DNA of 48,336 nt from a virus (IMGVR_UViG_2874968258_000013), one strand, 5' to 3'. Positions 1 through 43,179 are shown, numbered from the stretch's first letter. Notes: generated from the letters alone by a model not told the origin. Numbers and translations are program-made.

Positions 1-336
1 ATGGCAGAATCATTTGCAACAGGTTCCGATCATCAGGTTGTAAACGAGCTCAACGGGGAAAGACTGAGAGAACCTAACGAAGTTTTTAAACGTTTAGGTC
101 GAGCAATAAGATATAATTTTCAAGTGGACGATGCAAAATTTAGACGCGACAATGTAAAAGAAATAATTTCTAATTTATTCGCTAACAAAGTTGACGTTGA
201 CCATCCTGAAAATAAATACAAAGACTTTAAGGATCTCGAAGATAACGTTGAAAAAAGACTTCAAAATCGCCAGGCGAAATATCAAAATGAAATTAATCAA
301 CTATCTGCGCCAGGTGTTAATTTTGATGATATTTAA
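1..336 (+). CDS. yfdF: C-terminal part of an uncharacterized protein (YfdF-like); 5' end lies upstream of the window
   Basis: ORF open from window position 1; placement upstream of mlaA matches recalled K-12 order yfdF-mlaA-yfdC-argW (not verified). Confidence 0.4.
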   Translation: MAESFATGSDHQVVNELNGERLREPNEVFKRLGRAIRYNFQVDDAKFRRDNVKEIISNLFANKVDVDHPENKYKDFKDLEDNVEKRLQNRQAKYQNEINQLSAPGVNFDDI

Positions 337-475
337 AATTATTTTTCCAGTTTTTTGATTTTTCAACGCCTGAATATCGGAAATAGTCAGTGACGAACAT
401 CAGTATTTTTACATCATTACGTCCGGGTCATTGTCGGTTTATCTCCTTTTACTTGTGGTAATTGAGGGATAACAA

Positions 476-510
476 CAAAAAAGGTGAGTTTTGCGACTCA
501 CCTTTTTTAT
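476..510. terminator. bidirectional rho-independent terminator between convergent genes
   Basis: hairpin GGTGAGT-tttgcg-ACTCACC (483-502) flanked by A-run upstream and T-run downstream. Confidence 0.6.
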
Positions 511-517
511 TTGTTTC

Positions 518-1273
518 TTATTCAGAATCAATATCTTTTAAATCATCCTGAATCGCTTGTGCGTTCGGATTTTCCTGCGGTTTGAGTTCGCCGCCATTAG
601 CGATGAAATCATGACGCTGGAAGTACGCTTCGCGCACCATAATATAAGGATCGGACGACTGACGCAGCAGACCATCGGAATCCAGCAGCTGAGCGCGGGT
701 TTCGATCCCTTCAAGCGTCCATTTACCCACAGACATCGGCCAGGTCAGCCAGGAAAGAACCGGGTAAAGACCATCCGCCATATCACCACCGTCATCACGC
801 AGCGTGAAGCTACCGTAGAACGGTAACTGAACGTAAGGCCCATAACCCACGCCATAATGACCAAGCGTACTACCGAAGCGGTGAGGTTCAGTCCGTTGCA
901 GTTTCGGGTTCGCCATCCCTGCAACATCAATAAAGCCGCCCATCCCCAAAATGGTGTTCAGGAAAAAGCGGGTAAAGTGGACCATCCCCTGATAAGGGTC
1001 GCCCTGCAAGAAGTAGTTAACCATCACCGCAGGTTCTTCAAGGTTGCCAGTAAAGTTGCTCAAACCATTACGCGCCGGTTGCGGAACATAATCACGCCAG
1101 GCGACAGCGACCGGTCGAACAATATACGGGTCTAATACGTTGAAGTTGAAGTTGTACATGGTGCGGTTGAACCCTTCTAACGGGTCAGAACGCCCTTGCT
1201 GATCTGTACCGGAACTCGCACACCCCACCAGAAGCGTAGTTCCCAGAGCAAGCGCCGACAGGCGAAGCTTCAT
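518..1273 (-). CDS. mlaA: phospholipid-binding outer membrane lipoprotein MlaA (VacJ)
   Basis: 251-aa ORF with lipoprotein signal (LLVGCASS) and recalled MlaA sequence; expected neighbour of yfdC/argW. Confidence 0.88.
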   Translation of the reverse strand: MKLRLSALALGTTLLVGCASSGTDQQGRSDPLEGFNRTMYNFNFNVLDPYIVRPVAVAWRDYVPQPARNGLSNFTGNLEEPAVMVNYFLQGDPYQGMVHFTRFFLNTILGMGGFIDVAGMANPKLQRTEPHRFGSTLGHYGVGYGPYVQLPFYGSFTLRDDGGDMADGLYPVLSWLTWPMSVGKWTLEGIETRAQLLDSDGLLRQSSDPYIMVREAYFQRHDFIANGGELKPQENPNAQAIQDDLKDIDSE

Positions 1274-1566
1274 AAATGTCTCCCTGTTTTTTTATGGCTT
1301 ATGCAGTTTGCCATCCATGACGGAACGATACCGTATCCGCCTGTTTAGGTGTGGGCGATTGTAACAGCACGTCAACTGATGTCCAGACGCCCTGATTTGC
1401 TGATTTGATCATAGCCTGGTAATCGCCGCCCTGTAGGCTACTTGATTCTATAGAAACAGAAAAAGGCAAACGCAGCCTTTTCTACATTTTCAGAGTAACT
1501 CCCGCCAGTTGCGAGCAAAAAAGCCGCTACGCTTTAGCTATACGTGCTAATTCAAGAGAAGAGACC

Positions 1567-2499
1567 ATGGACAACGACAAAATTGATCAACACAGCGACG
1601 AAATTGAAGTTGAGAGCGAAGAAAAAGAGCGCGGCAAAAAAATAGAAATAGATGAAGACCGACTCCCCTCCCGGGCGATGGCAATTCATGAGCATATCCG
1701 CCAGGATGGTGAAAAAGAGCTGGAACGCGACGCAATGGCGCTACTGTGGTCAGCCATTGCGGCGGGTCTGTCGATGGGCGCTTCGTTACTGGCAAAAGGG
1801 ATATTTCATGTCGAACTGGAAGGTGTGCCGGGCAGCTTCTTACTGGAGAATCTCGGTTATACCTTTGGTTTTATTATCGTCATAATGGCCCGCCAGCAAT
1901 TATTTACCGAAAACACCGTGACTGCGGTACTACCCGTCATGCAAAAACCGACAATGAGCAACGTTGGCTTACTTATGCGGTTATGGGGAGTCGTGCTGCT
2001 GGGTAATATTCTCGGGACTGGTATTGCTGCGTGGGCATTTGAATATATGCCTATCTTCAATGAAGAAACTCGCGATGCATTTGTCAAAATCGGCATGGAT
2101 GTGATGAAGAACACCCCCAGCGAGATGTTTGCCAACGCGATCATTTCCGGCTGGCTGATCGCCACTATGGTATGGATGTTTCCTGCAGCAGGTGCGGCAA
2201 AGATTGTGGTGATTATATTGATGACCTGGCTTATTGCCCTAGGTGACACCACCCATATCGTGGTCGGTTCTGTTGAAATCCTCTATCTGGTGTTTAACGG
2301 TACGCTGCACTGGAGCGATTTCATCTGGCCCTTCGCACTACCTACTTTAGCGGGGAACATCTGCGGCGGCACCTTTATCTTCGCGTTAATGAGTCATGCA
2401 CAGATTCGTAACGACATGAGCAACAAGCGTAAAGCAGAAGCACGCCAAAAAGCAGAACGTGCGGAAAACATTAAGAAAAATGATAAAAACCCGGCATAA
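1567..2499 (+). CDS. yfdC: formate/nitrite transporter family inner membrane protein YfdC
   Basis: 310-aa ORF, multiple hydrophobic segments, recalled YfdC sequence; lies immediately upstream of argW as in K-12. Confidence 0.85.
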   Translation: MDNDKIDQHSDEIEVESEEKERGKKIEIDEDRLPSRAMAIHEHIRQDGEKELERDAMALLWSAIAAGLSMGASLLAKGIFHVELEGVPGSFLLENLGYTFGFIIVIMARQQLFTENTVTAVLPVMQKPTMSNVGLLMRLWGVVLLGNILGTGIAAWAFEYMPIFNEETRDAFVKIGMDVMKNTPSEMFANAIISGWLIATMVWMFPAAGAAKIVVIILMTWLIALGDTTHIVVGSVEILYLVFNGTLHWSDFIWPFALPTLAGNICGGTFIFALMSHAQIRNDMSNKRKAEARQKAERAENIKKNDKNPA

Positions 2500-2574
2500 A
2501 TGGCGAGGGTTTAAGCAATCAAGCGGCAGCGTACTTACCCCGCACTCCATTAGCGGGTATACTCATGCCGCATT

Positions 2575-2649
2575 GTCCTCTTAGTTAAATGGATATAACG
2601 AGCCCCTCCTAAGGGCTAATTGCAGGTTCGATTCCTGCAGGGGACACCA
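2575..2649 (+). tRNA. argW: tRNA-Arg (anticodon CCU)
   Basis: 75-nt sequence GTCCTCTTAGTTAAATGGATATAACGAGCCCCTCCTAAGGGCTAATTGCAGGTTCGATTCCTGCAGGGGACACCA read directly; anticodon loop CT-CCT-AA. Confidence 0.92.
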
Positions 2650-2810
2650 TTTATCAGTTCGCTCCCATCCGTACCAGTCCGCAAAATCCCCTGAATATCA
2701 AGCCTTCCGTATATTCACGGTTCGTCATGGTTCGCGTCAGATCGTTGACAGCCGCACTCCATGACGGGTAAAAAGTGGATAAAATAATTTTACCCACCGG
2801 ATTTTTACCC

Positions 2811-3968
2811 ATGCTCACCGTTAAGCAGATTGAAGCAGCAAAGCCGAAAGAAAAACCATACCGCCTTCTCGATGGTAATGGCCTGTACCTTTATGTTCCT
2901 GTATCCGGGAAAAAGGTATGGCAGCTTCGCTACAAGATTGACGGTAAGGAGAAAATCCTGACCGTCGGAAAATATCCGCTTATGACTTTGCAGGAAGCAA
3001 GGGATAAGGCATGGACTGCGAGGAAAGACATCTCGGTTGGCATCGTTCCGGTAAAGGCGAAAAAGGCTTCGTCTAACAACAATTCATTTAGTGCGATTTA
3101 CAAGGAATGGTACGAGCACAAGAAGCAAGTCTGGTCAGTAGGCTATGCAACTGAACTTGCCAAAATGTTTGATGACGACATTTTACCCATCATCGGCGGT
3201 CTTGAGATTCAGGATATTGAGCCGATGCAACTGCTGGAAGTAATCCGCAGATTTGAAGATCGCGGTGCAATGGAGCGAGCCAACAAAGCCCGCAGAAGAT
3301 GCGGCGAGGTTTTTCGTTACGCTATTGTCACCGGAAGGGCTAAATATAACCCGGCACCTGACCTTGCAGACGCCATGAAAGGATACCGCAAGAAGAACTT
3401 CCCGTTCCTTCCAGCAGACCAGATGCCTGCATTCAACAAAGCACTGGCAACATTTTCAGGAAGTATCGTATCGCTCATTGCGACCAAAGTTTTACGCTAC
3501 ACAGCCCTAAGAACAAAAGAGCTTCGTTCCATGCTATGGAAGAACGTCGATTTTGAAAACAGGATTATCACCATCGACGCCAGTGTGATGAAGGGACGCA
3601 AAATTCATGTGGTCCCGATGTCAGACCAGGTGGTTGAACTGCTCACTACGCTAAGCTCAATCACCAAACCAGTCTCAGAGTTTGTTTTTGCCGGGCGCAA
3701 CGATAAGAAGAAGCCAATCTGCGAGAACGCGGTATTGCTTGTGATCAAACAAATCGGCTATGAAGGTCTGGAAAGCGGTCACGGATTCAGGCATGAATTC
3801 AGCACGATTATGAACGAGCACGAATGGCCTGCTGACGCTATTGAAGTGCAGCTGGCACATGCCAACGGCGGATCTGTGCGCGGTATTTACAACCATGCTC
3901 AGTATCTCGATAAGCGCAGAGAAATGATGCAGTGGTGGGCGGATTGGCTTGATGAAAAAGTGGAGTAA
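2811..3968 (+). CDS. intS: P4-type tyrosine integrase (CPS-53/KpLE1 IntS-like)
   Basis: 385 aa from MLTVKQIEAAKPKEKPYRL; directly downstream of argW; ORF-track start at 2775 is probably upstream of the true ATG. Confidence 0.88.
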   Translation: MLTVKQIEAAKPKEKPYRLLDGNGLYLYVPVSGKKVWQLRYKIDGKEKILTVGKYPLMTLQEARDKAWTARKDISVGIVPVKAKKASSNNNSFSAIYKEWYEHKKQVWSVGYATELAKMFDDDILPIIGGLEIQDIEPMQLLEVIRRFEDRGAMERANKARRRCGEVFRYAIVTGRAKYNPAPDLADAMKGYRKKNFPFLPADQMPAFNKALATFSGSIVSLIATKVLRYTALRTKELRSMLWKNVDFENRIITIDASVMKGRKIHVVPMSDQVVELLTTLSSITKPVSEFVFAGRNDKKKPICENAVLLVIKQIGYEGLESGHGFRHEFSTIMNEHEWPADAIEVQLAHANGGSVRGIYNHAQYLDKRREMMQWWADWLDEKVE

Positions 3969-4120
3969 TCCGGACCGTACTTCTTTATCCAGGCATAAAG
4001 GCTGTGGGTAGTGATATCGAGACGTGTTGCAACGCTGGCAACAGAATAACCGCGATCAACAACCTGTTTGACTGCTTCAGTTTTAAACTCTTCGGGATAA
4101 CGCTTACCGCTCATGGGCAC
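3969..4120 (-). pseudogene. IS3-family transposase OrfA N-terminal fragment (about 50 aa)
   Basis: MSGKRYPEEFKTEAVKQVVDRGYSVASVATRLDITTHSLYAWIKKYGPD helix-turn-helix motif; similarity ends at the int stop codon. Confidence 0.55.
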
Positions 4121-4180
4121 CTCTCTTTAAGCCATCTTAAATGACTCTGAGGTGTCTGTTAAACCCGTGGCGATTCAAAA

Positions 4181-4630
4181 CTGCGTGTTACGTTCGCCCT
4201 GGACTGTTGCGATCGTGAAGCCATAGACTGGGCCGCAAGCACGGGAGGTTACGATAAAGCGACAGTGCAGGATGTCATGTTAGGAGCGATAGAAAAACGC
4301 TTTGGCGATAAAGTACCGGAACAGTCCATCCAGTGGCTGACAGATAACGGTTCAGCGTATAGAGCGCATGAAACACGGCAGTTCGCCAGAGAGTTGAATC
4401 TGGAGCCCTGCACAACGGCAATCAGCAGTCCTCAGAGTAATGGAATGGCAGAAAGGTTCGTGAAAACGATGAAGGAAGACTACATCGCGTTCATGCCGAA
4501 ACCGAATGTAAGAACGGCATTGCATAATCTTGCAGTGGCGATCGAACATTACAATGAAAACCATCCGCACAGTGCGCTGGGTTATCGCTCTCCGCGAGAA
4601 TATCGACGTCAGCGGGTAACGTTAACTTAA
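4181..4630 (+). pseudogene. IS2-like transposase OrfB C-terminal fragment (DDE domain 3' half)
   Basis: frame opens with [13 protein letters not shown]..., colinear with C-terminal half of IS2 InsD; no N-terminal half present. Confidence 0.6.
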
Positions 4631-4671
4631 GATACACCCCCTGTCTGGAAATAAGGGGGCAAGAACAATGA

Positions 4672-5414
4672 TCAGATTCCCTGGTGAGTAAGAATTTTAC
4701 TTTCTGAACTCCTCTGAGAGTATTGACTTGGAGAAACACCAAAATAACGTCTAAATACATAAGTAAAGTATGAGACACTGGCATAACCACAGACCTTAGC
4801 TACTTTACTAATAGGATAACAACGAGTGCTGAGTAAATATTCAGCCATTTGCATCCTCTCATCAAGTATGATCTTACTGAATGATACCCCCTCTTCTTTC
4901 AATTTCATCTTTAGTAAACTTTCGCTGAGATATAATCTTGATGATATATCCTTAAGACGCCATGGTGCAGATAAATCCGTATGAATAATCGTTTTAACTT
5001 TAGCCCTGTGCTTTTCAAACATCCAAACAGAAATACTCCAAATTGTTTTTCAGAAGAAAATGCAGAGAGACATGTAAAAGCAATAGACTCATCAAAAATT
5101 TCTATGTATTCAGCACAGTGATTAGCCCAACTAATTAATCCTTTAATTAAACTGAAGTCAGCAAAGTTTATTTTTAAATAAGATGGATATTCCCTACAAT
5201 CAGAAATATCCCTTAAGTTATTAGCTTTCAAATAGCGACTAATAAACTCAGCGCCAAAATCCGCCACTATCACTCTTTCAGGATATGTCAGGAAAAAATC
5301 TCTAGAGCTAGAGTCGACAAGTACAGATGAACCTCTCTCCAGAAACACACTCTCTTTTCCGAAATAAACATCAAAGGACTCCAAAATCAATATAACTGAA
5401 CATGTAGTTGCCAT
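4672..5414 (-). pseudogene. AraC-family transcriptional regulator (AppY/EnvY-like), frameshifted
   Basis: N-terminal ORF (4911-5423) and C-terminal HTH ORF (4672-5022) are in different frames and overlap; AT-rich. Confidence 0.55.
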
Positions 5415-5444
5415 ATCATCCACCCAATTGGTAATGACTCCAAC

Positions 5445-5948
5445 TTATTGATAGTGTTTTATGTTCAGATAATGCCCGATGACTTTGTCATGCAGCTCCA
5501 CCGATTTTGAGAACGACAGCGACTTCCGTCCCAGCCGTGCCAGGTGCTGCCTCAGATTCAGGTTATGCCGCTCAATTCGCTGCGTATATCGCTTGCTGAT
5601 TACGTGCAGCTTTCCCTTCAGGCGGGATTCATACAGCGGCCAGCCATCCGTCATCCATATCACCACGTCAAAGGGTGACAGCAGGCTCATAAGACGCCCC
5701 AGCGTCGCCATAGTGCGTTCACCGAATACGTGCGCAACAACCGTCTTCCGGAGACTGTCATACGCGTAAAACAGCCAGCGCTGGCGCGATTTAGCCCCGA
5801 CATAGCCCCACTGTTCGTCCATTTCCGCGCAGACGATGACGTCACTGCCCGGCTGTATGCGCGAGGTTACCGACTGCGGCCTGAGTTTTTTAAGTGACGT
5901 AAAATCGTGTTGAGGCCAACGCCCATAATGCGTGCTGTTGCCCGGCAT
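5445..5948 (-). CDS. insB: IS1 InsB (expressed as InsAB' by frameshifting)
   Basis: 167-aa ORF within IS1, overlapping insA. Confidence 0.9.
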
Positions 5949-6142
5949 CCAACGCCATTCATGGCCATATCAATGATTTTCTGGTGCGTACCGGGTTGAG
6001 AAGCGGTGTAAGTGAACTGCAGTTGCCATGTTTTACGGCAGTGAGAGCAGAGATAGCGCTGATGTCCGGCAGTGCTTTTGCCGTTACGCACCACCCCGTC
6101 AGTAGCTGAACAGGAGGGACAGCTGATAGAAACAGAAGCCAC
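5867..6142 (-). CDS. insA: IS1 InsA
   Basis: 91-aa [21 protein letters not shown]... within IS1. Confidence 0.92.
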
Positions 6143-6830
6143 TGGAGCACCTCAAAAACACCATCATACACTAAATCAGTAAGTTGGCAGCATCACCAGC
6201 CTTCTTGAGGCTACCACCTGTTTTCAGGTGTCATTCAGACGTGATTTGCCCCAGATTGGGAAAGCACGCTTTTTTCTCAGCTATCGTCCTCTTATTTTGC
6301 CGTTACATTTCTTTTTGCACTCTAATGATTAATTTACAATAATAATATCGGTAATTATTGAGTAATAATAAATTGATTATTGCAAATGTAATTTAATTCC
6401 ATCTTCGCGTTATATTCCAATCTTTAATCTCCGCATGGAACAAGTTGCATGCGTGACTATATTAAGACAACTTATAACCACCAAAACATTTGCTTTGCAA
6501 GCAAAAACAGTGACCATTGACTCTAAGAAAATTCCGATCTATTGTTAGGGTCATCAAAGTTACTTAACAGTATTCCGAAATGAAAATACAAAGCAAGCTA
6601 ATTGTCTTATTAAACATTATTATTGCATTTATATTATTTGAGCTTTTAGCTCAAAAATTTGGTTTGAGTACATTATTTTAAAGCAAGATAAACAATATCG
6701 GGCACTCTAGTTTTTATAATTAACAATTAAACGTCCATAAAATGTTATTTACTTTTCTTCGCTATTGTCATATCTTAATATAGTGGCTTACGCCACTCTA
6801 CTTTCATCACATTTTGTACGTTTATGTACT

Positions 6831-6946: not shown

Positions 6947-7528
6947 TTACCCTATAGGTGCTACTGGCCATTCAATATCCGGTGCAGTTGATGTATCAAC
7001 ACGGTTCAGCAACACCCGATACTTTTTCCAGGCTTCCAGCAACAAGGTTTCTTTCTCCGTTGCGATCTCCAGATCCACAGCATCCTGAAGCGGCGCTATA
7101 TGCTCACTGGCTACCTGCATCAGGCTGTTTTTTGTTTCTTCCGCCTCCCGGATCCGGAACAGTTTTTCTGCTTCCGTATCCTTCACCCAGGCTGTGCCGT
7201 TCCACTTCTGAAACTCCCCTTCCGGGGATAACCAGGTGACATTTTCCGGTAATGAGCCGAGTTCAGAAATAAATAACGCGTCGCCGGAAGCCACGTCATA
7301 AACCGTTTTACCCCGATGATCTTCAACGAGATGCCACGATGACTCATCACTGTTGAAAACAGCCACGAAACCAGCCGGAATATCTGGCGGTGCAATATCG
7401 GTACTGTTTGCAGGCAGACCTGTATGAGGCGGAATATATGCGTCACCTTCACCAATAAATTCATTAGTTCCGGCCAGCAGGTTATAAATTTTTATGGTCC
7501 GTGCTTGTTCACTCATTCTGAATGCCAT
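6947..7528 (-). CDS. tfa: tail fiber assembly protein
   Basis: 193 aa, [22 protein letters not shown] typical Tfa N-terminus; follows stf. Confidence 0.85.
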
Positions 7529-10500
7529 TATGCGAGCCTCACAATATAGTTAAATGCGATGTTTTTGACGGTGTTTTCCGCGTTACCAGCAGCGTTAACG
7601 GTGATGGTGTGTCCATGTGAACCAATCGCAACAGAGTGCGTATGAGCACCAATACCGACAGTATGCGCGTGTGCACCCGCAGATGCTGCTGTGCCGGACA
7701 GTGAGTGTGTATGGTTTCCTTCTGAAGATGATTTACCTACCCATTGGGAGGTGCCACTGGTTAATGAGCCACTGATACCAACCTGATTAGTCCCGCTAAC
7801 TTGAGTACTCCCTGCCGGAAACATTCCAGTAGGTTGACTCCCGCTATTCGTTCTGGGCCCAGTCTGACTATGTTGGTGGGCCCCAGCTGAACTTGTAGAG
7901 CCGCTCAGACTGTGCGTATGCGCCCCGGTGTTATTCGTGGATTTAGTGCCGTAATCAAACGACGATGTGGTTTTCGTCCCCAAATCCGTACTGGATGCGC
8001 TGGCGCTGTGGGTGTGCGATTTAATGCCATCCTGTTCCTGAGACAATACGGCACGACCACTGGCGGGCTTGCCCTTAATCGTCCAGCCACGCATATCAGG
8101 GATCACGCCTGACGGATAAGCGGCTGCAAGTTTCGGGTAAGCAGATTTGTCAAAAGTCTGCCCCTGCATCAGGGCATAACCAGACGGAACGGTATCTGAT
8201 GGCCACGGGATTGGTGCACCGACTGGATAAAACTCTGCAGGAGGATGAGCCGAGGTGTAAAGCTGCGCCCACGGCGACCAGTTTGCGTCGGTCGTATCCC
8301 GTCGTGAACGAATAAATGCCGGAGCATGAGCACCGCTTGTACCACTCCAGCCGATGAGTAACTCACCTTCGCCAACGGCTGTCATCCCTTTCAGGTGAAT
8401 GATATTTCCATACGCTGTTGGATATCCGTTGTTATACACCTCGTATAACTCAAGACCTGCTGCCCCCTGCGTATTGTCTGTCAGCGCGGCTACCCGACCT
8501 TTTGAAGCCAGATTAACTGATGATACTGCTGTTCCACCTGACGGTAGCGCCCCGATCTCTGATGCCGTTGGCTTATTTCTGGAGTTATAGTCCCTTCGCC
8601 AGCCAGGTGAATAATCTGTTCCGTGATTAATATAGGTAAACTGGGCGTTGGTTGTTCCGCCACCGCTGGATGTGGTCGGAGTGGTAATGCGGATCGTCAT
8701 CGCTGACTTTATCCCCATTACTTCAATGACAGCTCCGGCGAGATGAATATTACCGCAGCCAGTATCAGTAATGATTTTATTATTGCCATAAGACCAGGAA
8801 CCCTTGCACATCCAGTATGGATGGTTAAATGCTCCCTGAGAATCCAGCCACTCGATAAACTGTGCAGTCGTCCAGTTTCCTGTTGTTGTGCTTACTGACC
8901 CACCGAAGGCACGGCAGGCACCAATATTTTTCGTAAAGGTGTCTTTGCCAGGGATATCCGCACCGTTCTGATCTTTCTGCAGACGTTTCTCAGCATTGTC
9001 ATTGGCTGCTTTTACTGCCTTTGGCGTTGCCGCCAGCGTTTCAGACGTGCTGTTGGTCGCGCTGCTTAGCTGGATTATCCCTTTCTGTGCTGTCGTTGCA
9101 TCCTGTGCGGTGTATTTCCCGTTAGCCAGGTCATACGCGGCCTTAACGGCTTTTGGTGTTGCCGCCAGTGACTCGGAAGTGCTGTTAGTCGCACTACTGA
9201 GCTGTACTATCCCCTTTTTCGTCGTGCTCGCATCCTCAAGCGCCACGGCGGATGCAATATCCTCTGCCCGTTTTGCCGCTGTCTCAGCGCGCGTTGCTGC
9301 AGATTCCGCCGTACTTTTGCTCTGAGCTGCTGCCGTCGCACTACCAGCAGCCTCTGTCGCCTTCGTGGATGCCGTCGTGGCGCTGCCCTTCGCTGCTGAC
9401 GCCTGTCTGGTCGCCTCATCTTTTGAAGCAGACGCCGATGATGCCGATGACGCCGCCGAACTGGCGGACGATGCGGCAGCCGTTTTTGAGGATTCTGCAC
9501 GGGTTTCCGACGCTTTCGCGTTCGTTTCGGATGTCTTCGCTGCGGAAGCTGACCTCGCTGCTGCCGTGGCCTGCTCAGTGGCTTCGCCAGCCTTCGTTGT
9601 GGCTGTTGAAGCGGATGATGCGGCGCTTTCTGCCGATTTTCCGGCGGCGGTGGCACTGGCTGAGGCCTGCCCGGCACTTGTTGACGCGGCGCTGGCAGAC
9701 GACGCAGCCGCTGTTTTTGAGCCTGCCGCAGCTGAGGCACTCTGTCCCGCTGCCGTTTCAGAAGACCTGGCGTTCGTCTCGGACGTTTTGGCCGCCTTCG
9801 CAGAATTTGCAGCCGCCGTCGCCGAGGAAGCTGCGCTACTGGCGCTTGATGATGCGTTCGTTTCTGATGATTTTGCCGCCTCTTTTGAAGCCGACGCATC
9901 CCGGGCTGAGGTGGCAGCTTCTGACGCTTTCGTGGTCGCGGTGGATGCAGAAGTGGCTGCTGATTGTTGTGACGCTGCCGCATTCGTTTCTAACGTTTTC
10001 GCCGCACCGGCACTGGTAGCCGCCGCGCTTTTTGAGGACTCTGCAGCGGCAGCACTTTTTGAGGCTTCAGTGGCCTTTGTTGATGCCGTTCCTGCGCTGG
10101 AAGACGCTGACTGAGCCGACGAAGCGGCCTGTCCGGCTGACGTGCTGGCTGCACGTGCTGAATCTGCAGCATCAGTCGCATGGGTTGCCGCCTCACGGGC
10201 TGATGTGCTGGCATCGCTGGCTGATTTCTTCGCGGCTGCCGTGTTCTGTGCCACCGCGGACGCGTTACGCGCCACCTCTTCCACCATCAGCTCAAAACGG
10301 CGCAGTGCCTCCGGACGGGCATCATCCTCCGTCATGGCACCGAGAAAATCATTCAGCGTACCGGGTCGGGAATCTTCATACACGGTGATGGTCCCGGCAT
10401 GTGACGGCGGGAATCCTTCCACCAACAGAATAACGCTGTACTGACCGTACTCAACGTCCATGCTGTAACGCCCGGCTTCATCCGGATTTTCTGAGGCCAG

Positions 10501-10611
10501 CGTGTTCACCACCACCGTGGTGCTGTTACGTTTTGCTTTCAGCTGGATTGTGCAGTTCTGTACCGGTTTTCCTGTGCCGTCTTTCAGTACACCTGAAATC
10601 TTTACTGCCAT
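7528..10611 (-). CDS. stf: side tail fiber protein (lambda Stf-like) with Ala/Ser-rich repeats
   Basis: about 1027 aa from [26 protein letters not shown]; conserved [26 protein letters not shown] motif duplicated; C-terminal His/Ser-rich region. Confidence 0.85.
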
Positions 10612-10709
10612 ATTCACCCCACAAAAAAGCCCGCCTGAACCGGCGGGCTGTCATAACACTGTGTTACCTGGCTAATCAGAATTTATAACCGACACCCACG
10701 ATGAAACCG

Positions 10710-31165: not shown

Positions 31166-31344
31166 ATCATAACGTCCGGTTTCTTCCGTGCCAGAACCGG
31201 ACTCGCTGGCATGATGAAATATGTGTACCCGGTAACCCCGGTGTGCATCGTTTTTGATTATTCCCGCACACTCGCGCAGAAGGAGTTCCCCGTCGGGCTA
31301 CGGTCTCTGTTAATACGGGAATACGGCGACGATTGGATTTGCCC

Positions 31345-32250
31345 CTATATTTCCAGACATCTGTTATCACTTAACCCATTACAAGCCCGCTGCCGCAGAT
31401 ATTCCCGTGGCGAGCGATAACCCAGCGCACTATGCGGATGCCATTCGTTATAATGCTCGAACGCCTCTGCAAGGTTCTTTGCTGCCGTTAACCCGTCTGG
31501 TTTGGGCATGATACTGATGTAGTCACGCTTTATCGTTTTCACGAAGCTCTCTGCTATTCCGTTACTCTCCGGACTCCGCACCGCCGTGTTCTTCGGTTCA
31601 AGTCCCAACATCCGGGCGAACTGGCGTGTTTCATTAGCCCGGTAGCATGAACCATTATCCGTCAGCCACTCCACTGGAGACGACGGAAGATCGTTGCCGA
31701 AGCGGCGTTCCACCGCTCCCAGCATGACGTCCTGTACTGTTTCACTGTTGAAGCCGCCGGTAGTCACCGCCCAGTGCAGTGCCTCACGATCACAGCAGTC
31801 CAGCGCGAACGTGACACGCAGTCTCTCTCCGTTATCACAGCAGAACTCGAACCCGTCAGAGCACCATCGCTGATTGCTTTCTTTCACGGCCACTCTGCCT
31901 GTATGTGCCCGTTTCGATGGCGGTACAGCAGGTTTTCGCTCAAGCAACAGCGCATTCTGGCGCATGATCCGGTAAACACGTTTGGCATTGATCGCAGGCA
32001 TACCATCAAGTTCTGCCTGTCTGCGAAGCAGCGCCCATACCCGACGATAACCATACGTGGGCAGCTCTCCGATAACATGGTGTATACGGAGAAGCACATC
32101 CGTATCATCAGTGTGACGACTGCGGCGGCCATCCATCCAGTCATCGGTTCGTCTGAGAATGACGTGCAACTGCGCACGCGACACCCGGAGACAACGGCTG
32201 ACTAAGCTTACTCCCCATCCCCGGGCAATAAGGGCGCGTGCGCTATCCAC
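31345..32250 (-). CDS. insD: IS2 transposase OrfB (InsD)
   Basis: 301 aa DDE transposase, overlaps insC in -1 frame. Confidence 0.92.
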
Positions 32251-32618
32251 TTTTTTGCCCGTCCATATTCAACGGCTTCTTTGAGGAGTTCATTTTCCAT
32301 CGTTTTCTTGCCGAGCAGGCGCTGGAGTTCTTTAATCTGCTTCATGGCGGCAGCAAGTTCAGAGGCAGGAACAACCTGTTCTCCGGCGGCGACAGCAGTA
32401 AGACTTCCTTCCTGGTATTGCTTACGCCAGAGAAATAACTGGCTGGCTGCTACACCATGTTGCCGGGCAACGAGGGAGACCGTCATCCCCGGTTCAAAGC
32501 TCTGCTGAACAATTGCGATCTTTTCCTGTGTGGTACGCCGTCTGCGTTTCTCCGGCCCTAAGACATCAATCATCTGTACTCCAATGACTAGTCTAAAAAC
32601 TAGTATTAAGACTATCAC
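32208..32618 (-). CDS. insC: IS2 transposase OrfA (InsC)
   Basis: 136 aa [24 protein letters not shown]... Confidence 0.92.
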
Positions 32619-35345: not shown

Positions 35346-35455
35346 CGGCGGGTTTAAGCTGTGTGACGAAGTAACCACTCTTAACAGCATAACCAATTTT
35401 GGTGATGCTGCCAACTTACTGATTTAGTGTATGATGGTGTTTTTGAGGTGCTCCA

Positions 35456-35731
35456 GTGGCTTCTGTTTCTATCAGCTGTCCCTCCTGTTCAGCTACTGAC
35501 GGGGTGGTGCGTAACGGCAAAAGCACTGCCGGACATCAGCGCTATCTCTGCTCTCACTGCCGTAAAACATGGCAACTGCAGTTCACTTACACCGCTTCTC
35601 AACCCGGTACGCACCAGAAAATCATTGATATGGCCATGAATGGCGTTGGATGCCGGGCAACTGCACGCATTATGGGCGTTGGCCTCAACACGATTTTACG
35701 TCACTTAAAAAACTCAGGCCGCAGTCGGTAA
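35456..35731 (+). CDS. insA: IS1 InsA
   Basis: 91-aa ORF within IS1. Confidence 0.92.
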
Positions 35732-36153
35732 CCTCGCGCATACAGCCGGGCAGTGACGTCATCGTCTGCGCGGAAATGGACGAACAGTGGGGCTATGTCG
35801 GGGCTAAATCGCGCCAGCGCTGGCTGTTTTACGCGTATGACAGTCTCCGGAAGACGGTTGTTGCGCACGTATTCGGTGAACGCACTATGGCGACGCTGGG
35901 GCGTCTTATGAGCCTGCTGTCACCCTTTGACGTGGTGATATGGATGACGGATGGCTGGCCGCTGTATGAATCCCGCCTGAAGGGAAAGCTGCACGTAATC
36001 AGCAAGCGATATACGCAGCGAATTGAGCGGCATAACCTGAATCTGAGGCAGCACCTGGCACGGCTGGGACGGAAGTCGCTGTCGTTCTCAAAATCGGTGG
36101 AGCTGCATGACAAAGTCATCGGGCATTATCTGAACATAAAACACTATCAATAA
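35650..36153 (+). CDS. insB: IS1 InsB
   Basis: 167-aa ORF within IS1. Confidence 0.9.
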
Positions 36154-36558
36154 GTTGGAGTCATTACCCCAATTTTTTACGTACGTAAACCACTAAATGA
36201 TATTTGCGAGAATGCTACCGAGTATTGAAAACACCACTACAAATACATAAGCAAATCCCAACAAATAACCAACAAATAATTTCCAGTGTTATTTTTAGCC
36301 GGTTTAAATTGAACCTTCAAATTATAGAGCACTTATAAATAACAGCCGTTAATATAAATTGGCTAATAGATTTATTTTTATTCAGCCAAGAGCCATGAAT
36401 AGGATTCGATAGAAAAAAGTTCAGATAAAAATAGAGATCTACTTCACAAATCAAACGAGAAACCAAAACTTACATCTTGAAATAATCACATTGATTAGAT
36501 GAATATTTATCGCGCAGTGACATCATTTTTTAATAATAGTTCAAAAAAAGGGCTCACG

Positions 36559-37641
36559 ATGAAAAAATTAACAGTGGCAATTTCTGCTGTAGCTGCATCA
36601 GTACTGATGGCGATGTCTGCTCAGGCAGCTGAAATTTATAATAAAGACAGTAACAAGCTGGATCTGTACGGGAAAGTTAATGCTAAGCACTACTTCTCCT
36701 CTAATGATGCAGATGATGGTGATACTACTTATGCCCGTCTTGGCTTCAAAGGTGAAACCCAAATCAACGATCAACTGACTGGTTTCGGTCAGTGGGAATA
36801 TGAATTCAAAGGCAACCGCGCTGAATCTCAAGGTTCCTCCAAAGATAAAACCCGTCTTGCCTTCGCTGGCCTGAAATTCGGTGACTACGGCTCCATCGAT
36901 TACGGCCGTAACTACGGTGTAGCATACGACATCGGTGCGTGGACTGACGTCCTGCCAGAATTCGGTGGTGACACTTGGACTCAAACAGATGTGTTCATGA
37001 CTGGTCGCACCACTGGTGTTGCAACTTATCGTAACAACGACTTCTTTGGTCTGGTTGATGGTCTGAACTTTGCTGCTCAGTATCAGGGTAAAAATGACCG
37101 CACTGACGTAACTGAAGCTAATGGTGATGGTTTCGGTTTCTCCACTACTTATGAGTATGAAGGATTCGGTGTAGGTGCAACCTATGCTAAATCTGACCGC
37201 ACTAATAATCAGGTTATCTACGGTAACAACAGCCTGAATGCATCTGGTCAAAATGCTGAAGTATGGGCAGCTGGTCTGAAATATGATGCGAACAACATCT
37301 ATCTGGCTACCACCTATTCTGAAACCCAGAACATGACTGTTTTTGGTAATAACCATATTGCCAACAAAGCACAAAACTTCGAAGTAGTTGCACAATATCA
37401 GTTCGACTTCGGTCTGCGTCCGTCCGTTGCTTACCTGCAATCTAAAGGAAAAGACTTGGGTGCGTGGGGTGATCAGGACCTGGTTGAATATATTGATGTA
37501 GGTGCAACCTATTACTTCAACAAAAATATGTCCACTTTTGTTGATTACAAAATCAACCTGATTGATAAGAGCGATTTCACGAAAGCATCTGGCGTTGCTA
37601 CCGATGATATCGTTGCTGTAGGTATGGTTTACCAGTTCTAA
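36559..37641 (+). CDS. nmpC: prophage-encoded general porin (NmpC/Lc-like, OmpC family)
   Basis: 360 aa from [23 protein letters not shown]; 16-strand porin signature ending ...VAVGMVYQF; apparently intact coding frame. Confidence 0.88.
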
Positions 37642-37770
37642 TTTGATTACTAAAAGATATGTTGCGGGAGGCTTTGCCTCCCCAACATATAAGTGGCTCC
37701 CTCAAGCCACTTCCTTTAGGAGCACAACCTTGCTTCTAACTATATAAACCTTCTGTTATATATTACCCTT

Positions 37771-37803
37771 TATTTTTGGGGGCGTTGCAACGCCCCATTT
37801 TTA
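37771..37803. terminator. bidirectional rho-independent terminator between convergent nmpC and Q
   Basis: TTTTT-GGGGCGTTGCAACGCCCC-ATTTTT palindrome. Confidence 0.65.
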
Positions 37804-37829
37804 ATAATTTTTAGTAAACAATTGGCATA

Positions 37830-38213
37830 TTAATTAGAGTTATTAACAACGATATCCATCTCTAACCGGATATCTAATGCCATTAACATCCCTTCAATTA
37901 TGCCCTCAGCCTTCTGTAACCTTTTCCCGATATAACCATCAGAGCAGCAATGCTTACCTGCCAGTGACATGAATGTCATACCGACTACATAATAATCTAC
38001 TAATAAATCGTGCAAATCGCTGTTGTTCTTTTTCAGACGGGCCATGTACCCGCAAATAATCATCGCGTCATCGTCACAACATTGCGGGCGAGATTTTACT
38101 TTTGAAGTAATTAATCCCTTAAAACCGGCGGCAATGGACGACCAGGTCACATCTTCATGATTATTAGCCGCCCACGCTCCCCAACGCTCAAGAACCATCT
38201 GAATATCACGCAT
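37830..38213 (-). CDS. quuD: late gene antiterminator Q (DLP12 QuuD-like)
   Basis: 127 aa from [24 protein letters not shown]... Confidence 0.85.
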
Positions 38214-38298
38214 CAACTTACTCCACAAAAATCAGACCAGAACGCCAATTACAAGCAAAAATCAACAAAACAGTATTAGTTGATTGTTATCTCTGACT

Positions 38299-38439
38299 TC
38301 ATACTCCTGCTCCTGTCAGGGTTTTGGCGTAATTCTTCAGTATTCGGTAATCGGTCAAAACAGAACCGGGGAAACGATATAAGCGCAGATGCCCCCAGCG
38401 GTGGCGAAGAAGTTCTGCCATATAAAACTCAAACATCAT
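38299..38439 (-). CDS. ylcG: small protein YlcG
   Basis: 46-aa [49 protein letters not shown] translated by hand; below ORF-track size cutoff. Confidence 0.7.
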
Positions 38440-38798
38440 TCATTCCCCATTTCGGTGATGGTCAGTTCCAGCCTCCCACCTTTGGTAACAGGCATCTTCA
38501 CAACGCGGTAATCAACGACCTGAGCATCATCCAGCCAGAAACCTGCTTTGGTGAGTGCGTCAAAAGCGGCTTTTTGCAGATTATCCAGGTCACGGCGACG
38601 GCGATCCGGCATGTGGCACTCAATACGGATTTTCACTGGCATAGCCAGGCCGATATCCAGCATTGCGTTTTTAATGATTCGGGTGACGTTATCGCGGTAT
38701 GCCTGCCCTTCTGCGCTGATGTGTGTGCGCCCGCGATTATGGCGGTAATAGCGGTTATTGCTCGGAGGCCAGGGTAATGTGATGCTGTAGGTATTCAC
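38436..38798 (-). CDS. rusA: Holliday junction resolvase RusA
   Basis: 120 aa, recalled RusA sequence. Confidence 0.88.
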
Positions 38799-39085
38799 GC
38801 CTTAATAACCCCCTCTTTCAGCCAGATAACCTGCGTTCTCGCCATACCTTCCAGCGCGCATTCTTTTGCATACTCAGCATCGACAAAATATGTGCGGCGG
38901 TCGATTTCGTCGTGACAGGCAGAACATGCAATGGTGGCAATCAGGTCTGGCGGTTTGATACCGGTACCGCACAATCCAGCCAGCCGGATATGTGCCAGTA
39001 CTGACGTTTCAGGATTGCCATTACATACGCCAGGGATTCTTACCTGGCATTCCCGACCACGCGCTGCTTTTCTCAAATCAGCCAT
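38795..39085 (-). CDS. ybcO: YbcO (DUF1364) putative nuclease
   Basis: 96 aa from [20 protein letters not shown]; Cys-rich. Confidence 0.8.
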
Positions 39086-39248
39086 GATTCCTCCTTGCTG
39101 CCAGTCGCAACCATTTTTTATCAACCAGGCTAGCGGTATATCCGAGCAGTGTTGGTATTTCGGATGGCTTCAGCTCAGGCTTACGCTTACGACGATTTGA
39201 TACTCTGTAGATGTGCCCGTTCATGACACGAATAAGCGGTGTAGCCAT
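39078..39248 (-). CDS. ninE: NinE
   Basis: 56-aa [59 protein letters not shown] translated by hand; TAATG overlap with ybcN stop. Confidence 0.75.
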   Translation of the reverse strand: MATPLIRVMNGHIYRVSNRRKRKPELKPSEIPTLLGYTASLVDKKWLRLAARRNHG

Positions 39249-39703
39249 TACGCCTCCTGCTTATCGCGCAGCTGCTGGTATTCACAGCTCTGCGGAATTG
39301 TCAGGTGGCAGCCGATATTCATCGCCCAGGCTTCGACTTTGCACAGGAAGATGTACATCTCGCCGGTTTCCAGCTCTGACGTATGGCGGAGGGATTGGAC
39401 GGTGGTGACCTCGCCGGACACGACATCTACACGGTCTTTGCTTTCGTAGCCGAGATAGGTGTGCTTCATCGCGTCTTTGACCCACTCAGGCGTAGCGAAG
39501 GTCTTGCCGCGGGCGATGAGATATTCGCTGATCTCCGTGTACCACATGTGGCTGAGCGCGTTCTGCGACAGGCTGCGCTTCTCGCGCCACGGCTTAACCT
39601 GCAGGCGTAAGCATTGCCCGGCATCCAGCAATGGCTGAATCTGCTGGCCGATGGCCGCGAAGTTACCGCGATGGAGTTTGATGCCGTCTACTGGCAGAGT
39701 CAT
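39248..39703 (-). CDS. ybcN: YbcN (DLP12-type nin-region protein)
   Basis: 151 aa, recalled YbcN sequence. Confidence 0.82.
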   Translation of the reverse strand: MTLPVDGIKLHRGNFAAIGQQIQPLLDAGQCLRLQVKPWREKRSLSQNALSHMWYTEISEYLIARGKTFATPEWVKDAMKHTYLGYESKDRVDVVSGEVTTVQSLRHTSELETGEMYIFLCKVEAWAMNIGCHLTIPQSCEYQQLRDKQEA

Positions 39704-39967
39704 ACGGCCTCCCTAACGGAAACCGCAGAATGCAGAAAATCGCAGGTGCATTTCTGCATCTGTGACAAGGTGATGAGTTCAGATTGTGGTCGCATTTAAG
39801 TCCCCTTAAATGCGCAGAAGTCACCGGAGTTGTTCAGGCTCCGATGAGAGGATTATGGCGGATTGATTACGATAAATCAAAACTATCTTGAAGCCAAAAC
39901 AGTGATCTTCGCTTTAAAAACCTTGTATACTTTCACCTAATCACAGCCAGAACTATGGATCTAACCA

Positions 39968-40345
39968 ATGACCAACAAAGAAAACAAAGATAAATATATT
40001 AACAAGTTCAAGAAAGAGCTTTCAAAATATATACAACCAACTGCTGGAGTGGACATTCAATTATTTAACTCTAAGGATGGTGGTGGTGTAATTAAAGCCA
40101 CTTTGAATAGAAGTGGAAAAAGAAAATCATCTATTGCTGGTAATTTTACTAAATTAGGTGAGGCAATTACCTCGAGTGGGCAGAGGGTTTTTGGTGGTGA
40201 TCTATCAAATGTGAATTTTTACGGAACAAATACGATTTTTGATGGAGATACAATATTTTTAATTAAATCACCTGATTCAGAGGAGTGGTCATCACAAAAA
40301 GCTTCCAAAGACGTAGAGGGCATCGTATTTGGAGGGAAAAAATGA
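39968..40345 (+). CDS. hypothetical soluble protein (125 aa, Gly/Lys-rich), first gene of a low-GC two-gene cassette
   Basis: AT-rich ORF with no recognisable family; stop overlaps next start (ATGA). Confidence 0.55.
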   Translation: MTNKENKDKYINKFKKELSKYIQPTAGVDIQLFNSKDGGGVIKATLNRSGKRKSSIAGNFTKLGEAITSSGQRVFGGDLSNVNFYGTNTIFDGDTIFLIKSPDSEEWSSQKASKDVEGIVFGGKK

Positions 40346-40770: not shown

Positions 40771-40932
40771 TTATGTTGCCATGCGAAGTATGCATGGCTG
40801 CATGTCTGCCTTCCATTTAAAATGGGCTAAGACCTATAACCCTAAATATTATTCTTTATTATCTTCTTTACCACTTCGGTGATGCTGCCAACTTACTGAT
40901 TTAGTGTATGATGGTGTTTTTGAGGTGCTCCA

Positions 40933-41108
40933 GTGGCTTCTGTTTCTATCAGCTGTCCCTCCTGTTCAGCTACTGACGGGGTGGTGCGTAACGGCAAAAG
41001 CACTGCCGGACATCAGCGCTATCTCTGCTCTCACTGCCGTAAAACATGGCAACTGCAGTTCACTTACACCGCTTCTCAACCCGGTACGCACCAGAAAATC
41101 ATTGATAT
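40933..41108 (+). pseudogene. insA: IS1 insA truncated by IS21 insertion
   Basis: InsA frame diverges after ...QKIID at the IS21 junction. Confidence 0.85.
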
Positions 41109-41209
41109 TGTCAGCGCCAGTGATATAAGACGGTAATTCGCCATTTGGATTGTCCGCTCCACCCAACATGTTGTTTCCTTAAGGTTCTCACACCAGAAAG
41201 GACATCAAC

Positions 41210-43179
<1,970 letters not shown>

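What the first reader, a model, noticed from the sequence alone, without database searches (positions are those of the whole stretch)
3960..4670. IS3-family remnant begins exactly at the intS stop codon
The OrfA fragment similarity ends at the int stop and the OrfB fragment is inverted relative to OrfA, so the region downstream of int was replaced and scrambled by IS activity. In K-12 CPS-53 this position holds the gtr-like yfdGHI genes, which are absent here.
Basis: partly seen in the sequence, partly recalled or inferred. Interest (0 to 1): 0.2.

Follow-up and report, generated by a model that had tools for sequence, protein, structure and literature searches.

The report
Two IS stubs after prophage integrase
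Right after the stop codon of the prophage integrase gene intS lie the dead stubs of two different insertion sequences, an ordinary scar that is inherited as a block by many E. coli prophages and some free phages.

Summary
Homology to intS runs to 3966 and homology to an IS3-family element starts at 3967, so the junction lies inside the stop codon: TGA in IS-free intS alleles, TAA here.

The two fragments are not one scrambled IS. They are stubs of two unrelated IS3-family elements.
- **IS-A (3967-4177, minus strand):** the first 211 nt of a 1229-bp element of the K-12 'ISX' / ISEhe3-like type. It keeps the left inverted repeat and 49 codons of orfA.
- **IS-B (4178-4667, plus strand):** the last 490 nt of a 1336-bp ISEc48-like, IS2-group element. 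It keeps the 3' part of orfB and the right inverted repeat.

The intact end of IS-A is flush with an internal point of IS-B, which is a transposition junction. The int|IS-A junction sits in a 10-of-13 microhomology patch, which suggests an illegitimate deletion.

The scar did not arise in this genome. Of 5426 complete E. coli genomes, 191 carry the same junction. About 178 of them keep only an 84-bp intS remnant in prophages at the lambda attachment site. Isolated phages ev099, mEp332 and PhiR70_1 carry that version too.

K-12 has yfdGHI at this position, and the window has no gtr homologue. RefSeq already annotates both stubs. The finding is ordinary and of low interest.

The parts
2575..2649 (+). 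argW tRNA-Arg(CCU), the chromosomal attachment site of the prophage (context)
   Evidence: ARAGORN. Same position as argW in K-12.
2811..3968 (+). intS, intact 385-aa tyrosine integrase. Its stop codon TAA (3966-3968) is chimeric: the T comes from int and the AA from IS-A.
   Evidence: Pfam Arm-DNA-bind_3, Phage_int_M and Phage_integrase. PGAP 'prophage integrase IntS' in 99.9%-identical loci. All five IS-free alleles examined end in TGA.
3960..3972 (.). Junction 1: a microhomology patch GTGGAnnnATCCG shared by the intS 3' end and IS-A. The crossover lies between 3966 and 3967.
   Evidence: Three-way alignments. A 10-of-13 match has chance probability 1.3e-4 for a pre-set 13-mer.
3967..4177 (-). 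IS-A stub: nt 1-211 of a 1229-bp IS3-family element (K-12 'ISX' type, ISEhe3-like). It contains the left inverted repeat (terminus TGAATCGCCACGG at 4177) and orfA codons 1-49 (4114 to 3968).
   Evidence: 98.6% identity to the full copy in L004. 98.7% over 314 nt to K-12 ISX. IR pair defined. HTH_Tnp_1. PGAP pseudo 'transposase, missing C-terminus'.
3899..4120 (-). Open frame of 73 aa (71 aa from the ATG at 4114): 49 residues of OrfA followed by 22 residues read antisense through the last 70 nt of intS. Probably meaningless.
   Evidence: ORF list and translation. A promoter-like site at 4162-4134 is not above chance.
4178..4667 (+). IS-B stub: nt 847-1336 of a 1336-bp ISEc48-like (IS3 family, IS2 group) element. 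It contains the 3' 150 codons of orfB (4178-4630) and the right inverted repeat ending ...GGGGGCAAGAACA at 4667. The first catalytic Asp is missing.
   Evidence: 97.4% to the full copy in L005. 96.5% to a copy PGAP labels ISEc48 family. The Sakai genome annotates the same fragment as 'ISEc48 Family: IS3 partial', ending at the same base. rve, rve_3 and IS2 TnpB hits. The WCSD motif lies upstream of the break.
4672..5415 (-). YdeO/GadX-like AraC-family regulator gene (probable patE), the cargo that the IS-B stub always accompanies. It is a pseudogene in this window through a 1-nt deletion near 5003.
   Evidence: Intact 247-aa CDS in L001, L006 and L010. Indel located. NCBIfam YdeO E=9e-43. The IS-B|AraC junction occurs in 656 genomes.
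5430..6197 (-). Intact IS1, 14 bp upstream of the AraC start codon (context, not part of the IS3 remnant)
   Evidence: 768-bp copy, 99.7% identical to the IS1 copy PGAP annotates in L001, with three more copies in the window, one split by an IS21-like element. Homology to IS1-free relatives stops at 5427-5429.

Best explanation
**What it is.** The interval holds two inactive stubs of two different IS3-family insertion sequences, placed back to back between an intact intS and an AraC-family (patE-like) cargo gene.

**Most likely history.**
1. An ISEc48-like element (IS-B) inserted 4 bp beyond the stop codon of the AraC gene. This IS-B|AraC junction is the most widespread one.
2. An ISX/ISEhe3-like element (IS-A) placed its left end at IS-B nt 846/847, in the opposite orientation. 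This happened either by insertion into IS-B or by an IS-A-end-mediated adjacent deletion. It cut off the first catalytic Asp of IS-B.
3. An illegitimate recombination joined the last base pairs of intS to IS-A nt 211. It used a 10-of-13 microhomology patch (GTGGAnnnATCCG). It removed the rest of IS-A, the 5' 846 nt of IS-B if still present, and whatever lay after intS, which in relatives is gtr, acyltransferase or EpsG cargo. It turned the native TGA stop into TAA without changing the integrase protein.

**How it spread.** The scar then travelled as a block. Module exchange placed it, with only 84 bp of intS, next to a lambda-type sib/attP/int module in lambdoid phages. Exchange at the IS-A stub gave it a different right-hand flank in strain PM7.

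**Shown versus inferred.** The identities of the pieces and the junction coordinates are shown. The order of events and the deletion mechanism are inferred. Neither stub can transpose.
For: - **Junction coordinates:**
- **Two distinct elements:** the full-length reference copies are 1229 bp and 1336 bp, each with terminal inverted repeats. They share no DNA similarity.
- **Domains:**. The catalytic Asp lies upstream of the break.
- **Stop codon:** TGA in five IS-free intS alleles, followed by about 40 nt of conserved tail that is missing here.
- **Microhomology:** chance probability 1.3e-4.
- **Nested frequency of the junctions in 5426 genomes:** IS-B|AraC 656, IS-A|IS-B 184, int|IS-A 191, full-length intS with the junction 13.
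- **Independent truncation:** O157:H7 carries the IS-B stub cut at 4194 without IS-A.
- **Presence in phages:** the block with the 84-bp intS remnant lies beside a lambda-type core and P arm in strain PI7, and occurs in isolated phages ev099, mEp332 and PhiR70_1.
- **Different right flank:** PM7 has the same int|IS-A junction with other DNA to the right of IS-A.
Against: - No precursor was found among 5426 genomes. All 184 carriers of the IS-A|IS-B junction also carry the int|IS-A junction, so no genome has a full-length IS-A nested in IS-B. The order of steps 2 and 3 therefore rests on parsimony.
- PM7 shows that the int|IS-A junction can exist without IS-B. The junction may have arisen in a P22-like argW phage and acquired IS-B/patE later, by recombination within the 211-nt IS-A homology.
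- The A at 3967 could instead be a point mutation, with the crossover 1-5 nt further right.
- No target-site duplications survive that could prove the transposition steps.
Confidence: 0.8

Rival explanations
1. One reading: a single IS3-family element downstream of int was broken, and one half was inverted in place by IS activity.
For: The OrfA and OrfB pieces are adjacent, on opposite strands, and both belong to the IS3 family.
Against: The full-length relatives of the two pieces share no DNA similarity. They differ in length (1229 vs 1336 bp) and in their terminal repeats. One piece is of the K-12 ISX / ISEhe3 type and the other of the ISEc48 / IS2 type. The OrfA piece ends at a complete IS terminus that is flush with IS-B.
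Confidence: 0.03
2. The scar arose in a P22-like argW phage, as in strain PM7: intS, cargo, a full IS-A, an SGNH hydrolase gene, then the tailspike gene. The microhomology deletion happened there. The IS-B/patE flank was acquired later, by homologous recombination within the 211-nt IS-A stub with another IS-A copy nested in IS-B.
For: PM7 carries the identical int|IS-A junction with the IS-A terminus joined to a truncated SGNH-hydrolase gene next to a P22-like tailspike gene. Strain FACU 2024 has a nearly full IS-A 480 bp upstream of that point in the same phage context. The int genes of P22-like phages (HK620, CUS-3) match the intS 3' end.
Against: Only about 7 of the 191 carriers can be of this type (191 minus 184). 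No full IS-A nested in IS-B was found to serve as the recombination partner. The history needs one more event than the main model.
Confidence: 0.2
3. The stubs have been co-opted. Three forms are conceivable. The IS-A promoter and the 71-73-aa truncated OrfA frame, read antisense into intS, might modulate integrase expression. The truncated OrfA might act as a trans-acting HTH regulator. The hairpin in the IS-B right repeat might terminate the AraC (patE) transcript.
For: The block is kept at 99% identity or more in 184-191 genomes and in viable phages. An open frame runs from 4120 to 3899. A promoter-like site lies at 4162-4134. A CCCCCT...AGGGGG inverted repeat lies about 10 nt beyond the AraC stop codon (sequence).
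Against: The promoter-like count is not above chance (4 found vs 3.5 expected). The terminator scan did not flag the IS-B hairpin. Near-identity of all copies is explained by recent common descent and gives no evidence of selection. O157:H7 and PM7 do without one or the other stub.
Confidence: 0.03

Closest known systems
ISX (insX pseudogene) in E. coli K-12 cryptic prophage CP4-6
   Same: Same element type. It is 98.7% identical over 314 nt to the full-length IS-A reference and 96.9-97.7% identical to the window stub. It is also a dead 5' stub that starts at the same left terminus.
   Different: K-12 keeps 312 nt and the window 211 nt. The flanks differ: IS30/IS1 and yagB in K-12, intS and IS-B here.
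ISEhe3-like element annotated in Shigella phage SfIV (IS3 family)
   Same: Collinear over all 1229 nt with the IS-A reference, at 88.8% identity. It is also located in the cargo region between tail-fibre and serotype-conversion genes of a temperate phage.
   Different: It is below the roughly 95% identity used to call the same IS. It is full length in SfIV. The formal ISfinder name of IS-A was not determined.
ISEc48 (IS3 family, IS2 group), partial copy in prophage Sp1 of O157:H7 Sakai
   Same: The same IS-B|AraC junction and the same right terminus. Sakai's 'ISEc48 Family: IS3 partial' ends at the base equal to window 4667, next to ECs_0287. The window stub is 96.5% identical to a copy PGAP labels ISEc48 family.
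   Different: In O157:H7 the stub is cut at the base equal to window 4194, has no IS-A beside it, and borders a P4-like prophage. In the window the cut is at 4178 and was made by the IS-A terminus.
IS2 of E. coli K-12
   Same: Same group. The orfB fragment hits NCBIfam 'IS2 transposase TnpB'. The inverted-repeat architecture and the DDE motifs align.
   Different: Only about 69% nucleotide identity, so it is a different IS.
Cryptic prophage CPS-53 of K-12 (argW, intS, yfdGHI)
   Same: Same attachment site and integrase, 97.9% identical over window 266-3966.
   Different: K-12 has a TGA stop, a conserved tail of about 40 nt and the gtr-type yfdG/H/I genes. The window has the two IS stubs and a patE-like gene instead, and no gtr homologue.
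Lambdoid phages ev099 (Radostvirus), mEp332 and PhiR70_1
   Same: They carry window 3885-5427 at 99.2-99.4% identity, with both IS junctions and the AraC gene, between the tail-fibre genes and the int/xis module.
   Different: They keep only the last 84 nt of intS and use a lambda-type integrase and attP. They have no IS1.

Membership tests
IS3 family (IS-A stub, 3967-4177) | Terminal inverted repeat beginning 5'-TG | tested here: met
   The terminus TGAATCGCCACGG lies at 4177 on the minus strand. In the full reference copy the two ends match 13 of 13 at the tips.
IS3 family (IS-A stub, 3967-4177) | OrfA with an N-terminal helix-turn-helix | tested here: met
   Pfam HTH_Tnp_1, E=7.6e-15, profile positions 3-47 of 75. 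The 49 residues are identical to the full-length OrfA.
IS3 family (IS-A stub, 3967-4177) | orfB DDE transposase reached by a programmed -1 frameshift, and a second terminal repeat (an autonomous element) | tested here: not met
   Only nt 1-211 of 1229 are present. The frameshift site, orfB and the right repeat are absent. The full copy in L004 has them (PGAP 'programmed frameshift').
ISEc48 / IS2 group of the IS3 family (IS-B stub, 4178-4667) | DDE (rve) catalytic domain with all three acidic residues | tested here: not met
   rve profile positions 24-102 of 102, plus rve_3. The second Asp (LTDNGS) and the Glu (NGMAERF) are present. The first Asp (WCSD) lies just upstream of the break.
ISEc48 / IS2 group of the IS3 family (IS-B stub, 4178-4667) | At least about 95% nucleotide identity to a named ISEc48 copy, and the same right terminus | tested here: met
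   96.5% to a copy PGAP labels 'IS3-like element ISEc48 family' (H84). 97.4% to full copy L005. Sakai's 'ISEc48 partial' feature ends at the same base. ISfinder itself was not available.
ISEc48 / IS2 group of the IS3 family (IS-B stub, 4178-4667) | orfA, the left terminal repeat and flanking target duplication | tested here: not met
   Nt 1-846 are absent, so a duplication cannot be assessed.
IntS (CPS-53/Sf6-type, P4-like tyrosine integrase at argW) | Full-length integrase with arm-binding, central and catalytic domains, directly downstream of argW | tested here: met
   385 aa with three Pfam domains. 95.9% identical to the K-12 intS 3' part. tRNA-Arg(CCU) lies 162 nt upstream. Activity was not tested.
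PatE/Psr group of prophage-encoded YdeO/GadX-like AraC regulators (neighbouring gene) | Identity with the characterised PatE (Z0321) and an intact reading frame | tested here: inconclusive
   99.5% DNA identity to Sakai ECs_0287 in prophage Sp1. Z0321 is the 'putative regulator' of prophage CP-933H / OI-8. The frame is broken in the window.

The most novel reading that the evidence does not exclude
The IS-A stub may not be inert. Its own promoter would drive a short transcript and a 71-73-aa truncated OrfA (HTH) product that reads antisense across the last 70 nt of intS. This would give these phages an IS-derived brake on integrase expression, or a trans-acting repressor of resident ISX-type elements. 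That could explain why the stub is kept in viable phages.
Probability: 0.03. Interest if true: 0.4.

Novelty: already known. Interest (0 to 1): 0.08.

Why it matters
It matters little beyond correct annotation.
- It shows that the 'IS3 remnant' is a composite of two named element types. RefSeq/PGAP and the Sakai genome annotation already flag both.
- It shows that the scar is an inherited marker of a patE-type cargo module that moves between argW, att-lambda and P4-adjacent prophages.
- The three nested junctions could serve as cheap lineage markers for tracing that module.
- The chimeric stop codon is a tidy textbook case of a microhomology deletion that stops at the last base that still leaves the integrase protein intact.

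Tried and rejected
- **intS stop as a general module boundary.** I first thought all argW prophages diverge within 4 nt of the stop, because megablast hits ended at 3971-3972. Direct alignment showed that the IS-free alleles share about 40 more nucleotides with each other. The idea was dropped.
- **Precursors.** I looked for a full IS-A nested in IS-B. The carrier sets of the two junctions coincide (184 and 184), so none was found.
- **IS-free AraC locus.** I looked for one in order to define the empty IS-B target site. Every high-identity AraC copy carries the IS-B stub.
- **ISEc52 as the identity of IS-A.** There was no similarity.
- **Exact-pattern scan for the junction** in one genome per species (GTDB representatives): 0 hits. 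The same pattern in IMG/VR gave 6 viral contigs.
- **Exact lambda core GCTTTTTTATACTAA** in the loci and the window: no match. The PI7 site has a one-mismatch variant, seen by eye.
- **Bender et al. 2012 (PatE paper)** is not held, and the EDL933 record NC_002655 is not in the collection. The PatE equivalence is therefore inferred.
- **Promoter and terminator scan of 3800-5500:** nothing above chance for promoters.
- **Source of the window:** not identified. No complete E. coli genome covers 80% or more of 36000-48336.

Full report
**Setting**

The window starts in the chromosome with mlaA (518-1273, minus strand), yfdC (1567-2499) and argW tRNA-Arg(CCU) at 2575-2649. It then enters a prophage. 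The first prophage gene is intS (2811-3968, 385 aa). It has the arm-binding, central and catalytic integrase domains. PGAP annotates it as 'prophage integrase IntS' in loci that are 99.8-99.9% identical over the query (strains STEC409 and C7).

After intS come the interval in question, then an AraC-family gene (4672-5415, minus strand), an IS1 (5430-6197), and lambdoid tail-fibre assembly and tail-fibre genes (6947-7528 and 7528-10617).

**Checking the observation**

BLAST against K-12 shows intS homology ending at 3966. BLAST against a full-length IS3-family element (strain 1517k, locus L004) shows homology from 3959 to 4177. In the base-by-base alignment this homology is perfect from 3967, preceded by a shared GTGGA at 3960-3964.

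Five IS-free intS alleles were examined: K-12, CFSAN061763, SF-088, H9Ecoli and C 236-04A. All read GTGGAG TGA TCC(G/A)CC... and then share roughly 40 further nucleotides with each other. The window reads GTGGAG TAA TCCGGACC..., and the IS reads GTGGAA GAA TCCGGACC....

So the crossover lies between 3966 and 3967, inside the stop codon. The stop changed from TGA to TAA and the protein is unchanged. At the protein level the OrfA fragment is identical to residues 1-49 of the intact OrfA and diverges at the codon that overlaps the stop.

**What the two fragments are**

The minus-strand piece (3967-4177) is nt 1-211 of a 1229-bp element, here called IS-A.
- Its terminal repeats are TGAATCGCCACGG...CCGTGGCGATTCA.
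- It carries the left repeat and 49 codons of orfA (Pfam HTH_Tnp_1, E=7.6e-15).
- The reference copy is 98.7% identical over 314 nt to the stub that the K-12 record calls 'insertion sequence ISX' / insX.
- It is 88.8% identical over its full length to the element annotated 'ISEhe3 orfA' in Shigella phage SfIV.

The plus-strand piece (4178-4667) is nt 847-1336 of a 1336-bp element, here called IS-B.
- It is 97.4% identical to a full plasmid copy (L005) and 96.5% identical to a copy PGAP labels 'IS3-like element ISEc48 family'.
- Its 150 codons match Pfam rve and rve_3, and NCBIfam 'IS2 transposase TnpB' positions 143-289 of 301.
- It is only about 69% identical to IS2 itself.
- The O157:H7 Sakai record annotates the very same fragment as 'ISEc48 Family: IS3 partial', ending at the base that corresponds to 4667.

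The full-length IS-A and IS-B have no detectable DNA similarity to each other. 'OrfB inverted relative to OrfA' is therefore true as a description, but it does not mean that one element was scrambled. These are two elements.

**The three junctions**

- **Junction 2 (4177|4178).** The complete left terminus of IS-A is flush with an internal point of IS-B orfB, directly after ...[14 protein letters not shown]. This is what an insertion of IS-A into IS-B produces. An IS-A-end-mediated adjacent deletion would give the same result. Either way the first catalytic Asp of IS-B is removed.
- **Junction 3 (4667|4668).** The complete right terminus of IS-B lies 4 bp from the stop codon of the AraC gene.
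- **Junction 1 (3966|3967).** This junction is internal to IS-A, so transposition cannot have made it. It lies in a patch where the intS end and IS-A agree at 10 of 13 positions (GTGGAnnnATCCG). The chance probability is about 1.3e-4 for a fixed 13-mer, although the patch was chosen after the fact. I read it as a microhomology-guided illegitimate deletion. It removed IS-A nt 212-1229, the 5' part of IS-B, and the native sequence after intS. This mechanism is an inference.

**What used to be there**

In relatives, the space after intS holds variable cargo:
- yfdG/H/I (gtr type) in K-12 and CFSAN061763;
- an acyltransferase in SF-088;
- an EpsG-family gene in H9Ecoli;
- directly the tail-fibre assembly gene in C 236-04A.

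The window has no homologue of YfdG, YfdH or YfdI anywhere (tblastn). Which cargo was lost here cannot be told.

**The scar is inherited, not local**

Counts among 5426 complete E. coli genomes:

| Feature | Genomes |
|---|---|
| int\|IS-A junction | 191 |
| IS-A\|IS-B junction | 184 |
| Both junctions over 3800-4700 (count equals the row above) | 184 |
| Full-length intS plus the junction | 13 |
| IS-B\|AraC junction | 656 |

By subtraction, about 178 genomes have only the last 84 nt of intS (window 3885-3968) in front of the stubs.

In strain PI7 that version lies next to ybhB/bioA, directly beside a lambda-like P arm and a core that reads CTTTTTTATACTAACTTGAGCG. That is the lambda attachment site, as the b-region end of a lambdoid prophage. 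The recognition of the lambda attP and sib sequences rests on my knowledge of the lambda sequence.

The same 84-nt version is present at 99.2-99.4% identity in isolated phages ev099, PhiR70_1 and mEp332, between the tail-fibre genes and a lambda-type int/xis module. It also occurs in IMG/VR contigs.

Full-intS versions occur in several prophage types:
- a myovirus-tailed prophage in strain C7;
- a lambdoid prophage carrying espJ and tccP in strain 2013C-3264;
- the lambdoid prophage of this window.

O157:H7 carries the IS-B stub plus the AraC gene without IS-A. There the stub is cut 17 nt further in, at the base equal to 4194, and borders a P4-like prophage. So IS-B|AraC is the oldest and most widespread junction, and the stubs travel with the AraC cargo through phage mosaicism.

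**A complication**

Strain PM7 has the identical int|IS-A junction. There the IS-A terminus is flush with the inside of an SGNH-hydrolase gene next to a P22-like tailspike gene, not with IS-B. Strain FACU 2024 has a nearly full IS-A 480 bp upstream of that point in the same phage context.

One left junction with two right flanks at the exact IS terminus is most simply explained by homologous recombination within the 211-nt IS-A homology with another IS-A copy. The original context of the deletion could therefore be either an IS-B/patE-bearing phage or a P22-like phage. I could not decide between them. No precursor with a full IS-A nested in IS-B exists in the collection.

**Function**

Neither stub can transpose. 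IS-A lacks orfB and its right end. IS-B lacks orfA, its left end and one catalytic residue.

An open frame of 73 aa (3899-4120, minus strand) joins 49 OrfA residues to 22 residues read antisense to intS. A promoter-like site lies upstream of it at 4162-4134, but the number of such sites is what shuffled sequence gives. I see no evidence of co-option. The near-identity of all copies reflects recent common descent.

**Comparison with what is known, and verdict**

Everything here belongs to known kinds:
- K-12 'ISX' and ISEc48 stubs, which RefSeq/PGAP and the Sakai annotation already flag as partial transposase genes;
- a CPS-53-type integrase at argW;
- a prophage-borne YdeO/GadX-like regulator.

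It needs correcting on three points: there are two elements rather than one scrambled element, the int-side junction is a non-transpositional microhomology deletion, and the scar is inherited rather than local. Interest is low.

Noticed in passing
window 4672-5415 (minus strand), indel near 5003: The AraC-family gene next to the stubs is a YdeO/GadX-like regulator (NCBIfam YdeO E=9e-43). It is 99.5% identical to Sakai ECs_0287 in prophage Sp1, so it is probably PatE (Z0321 of CP-933H / OI-8). It is intact (247 aa) in relatives but broken here by a 1-nt deletion.
   Followed up: partly
window 5430-6197: An IS1 lies 14 bp upstream of the AraC start codon. Compared with strain PI7, 136 bp next to the IS1 are missing. 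Compared with IS1-free phage ev099, the IS1 replaces 743 bp. This looks like IS1-adjacent deletion. One IMG/VR contig (L014) shares the window's exact IS1 position.
   Followed up: partly
window 35401-36168, 47349-48116, 40878-41108 with 43239-43779, and 41210-43179: There are three further IS1 copies. One is split by an IS21-like element, with istA at 41210-42379 (Mu-transposase C-terminal and rve domains). The far end of the prophage is heavily IS-ridden.
   Followed up: partly
window 44291-45157: This is a LacY C-terminal fragment (Pfam LacY_symp positions 125-412 of 413, E=1e-132), a few hundred bases beyond an IS1 end. The prophage appears to be cut off and joined to the lac region. No complete E. 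coli genome in the collection covers 36000-48336. The pattern is Shigella-like, but the source was not identified.
   Followed up: no
window 31339-32528: A separate IS2-type element, about 69% identical to IS-B, sits inside the prophage late/lysis region. ORFs of 301 and 136 aa lie at 31345-32250 and 32208-32618.
   Followed up: no
L002 (strain PI7) 5770-6084; also phage ev099, L020 5705-6084: In att-lambda lambdoid phages the last 84 nt of intS survive as a remnant, about 15 nt from a lambda-like sib/tI hairpin and P arm. This marks the point where an intS/argW integration module was swapped for a lambda-type one, or the reverse.
   Followed up: partly
L024 (strain PM7) 7260-7480 and L025 (strain FACU 2024) 3807-5531: PM7 has the same int|IS-A junction with a different right flank: a truncated SGNH-hydrolase gene beside a P22-like tailspike gene. 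FACU 2024 has a near-full IS-A 480 bp upstream in the same phage context. In that copy, IS-A nt 218-312 are replaced by about 110 unrelated nt, with a breakpoint only about 6 nt from the window's nt-211 break.
   Followed up: partly
L007 (K-12) 2709-2745 compared with window 4178-4215: The DNA just outside the ISX terminus in K-12 (AAATTGCG...CCCATGACTG) resembles the IS-B sequence outside the IS-A terminus in the window (AAACTGCG...CCCTGGACTG). This could reflect target-site preference, a decayed IS2-group relic in K-12, or chance.
   Followed up: no
window 7528-10617 (minus strand): The 1029-aa tail-fibre ORF has a stretch of roughly 350 residues that is rich in Ala, Ser and Thr and is repetitive. 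Identity to relatives drops to 88-95% across it, and homology is patchy.
   Followed up: no
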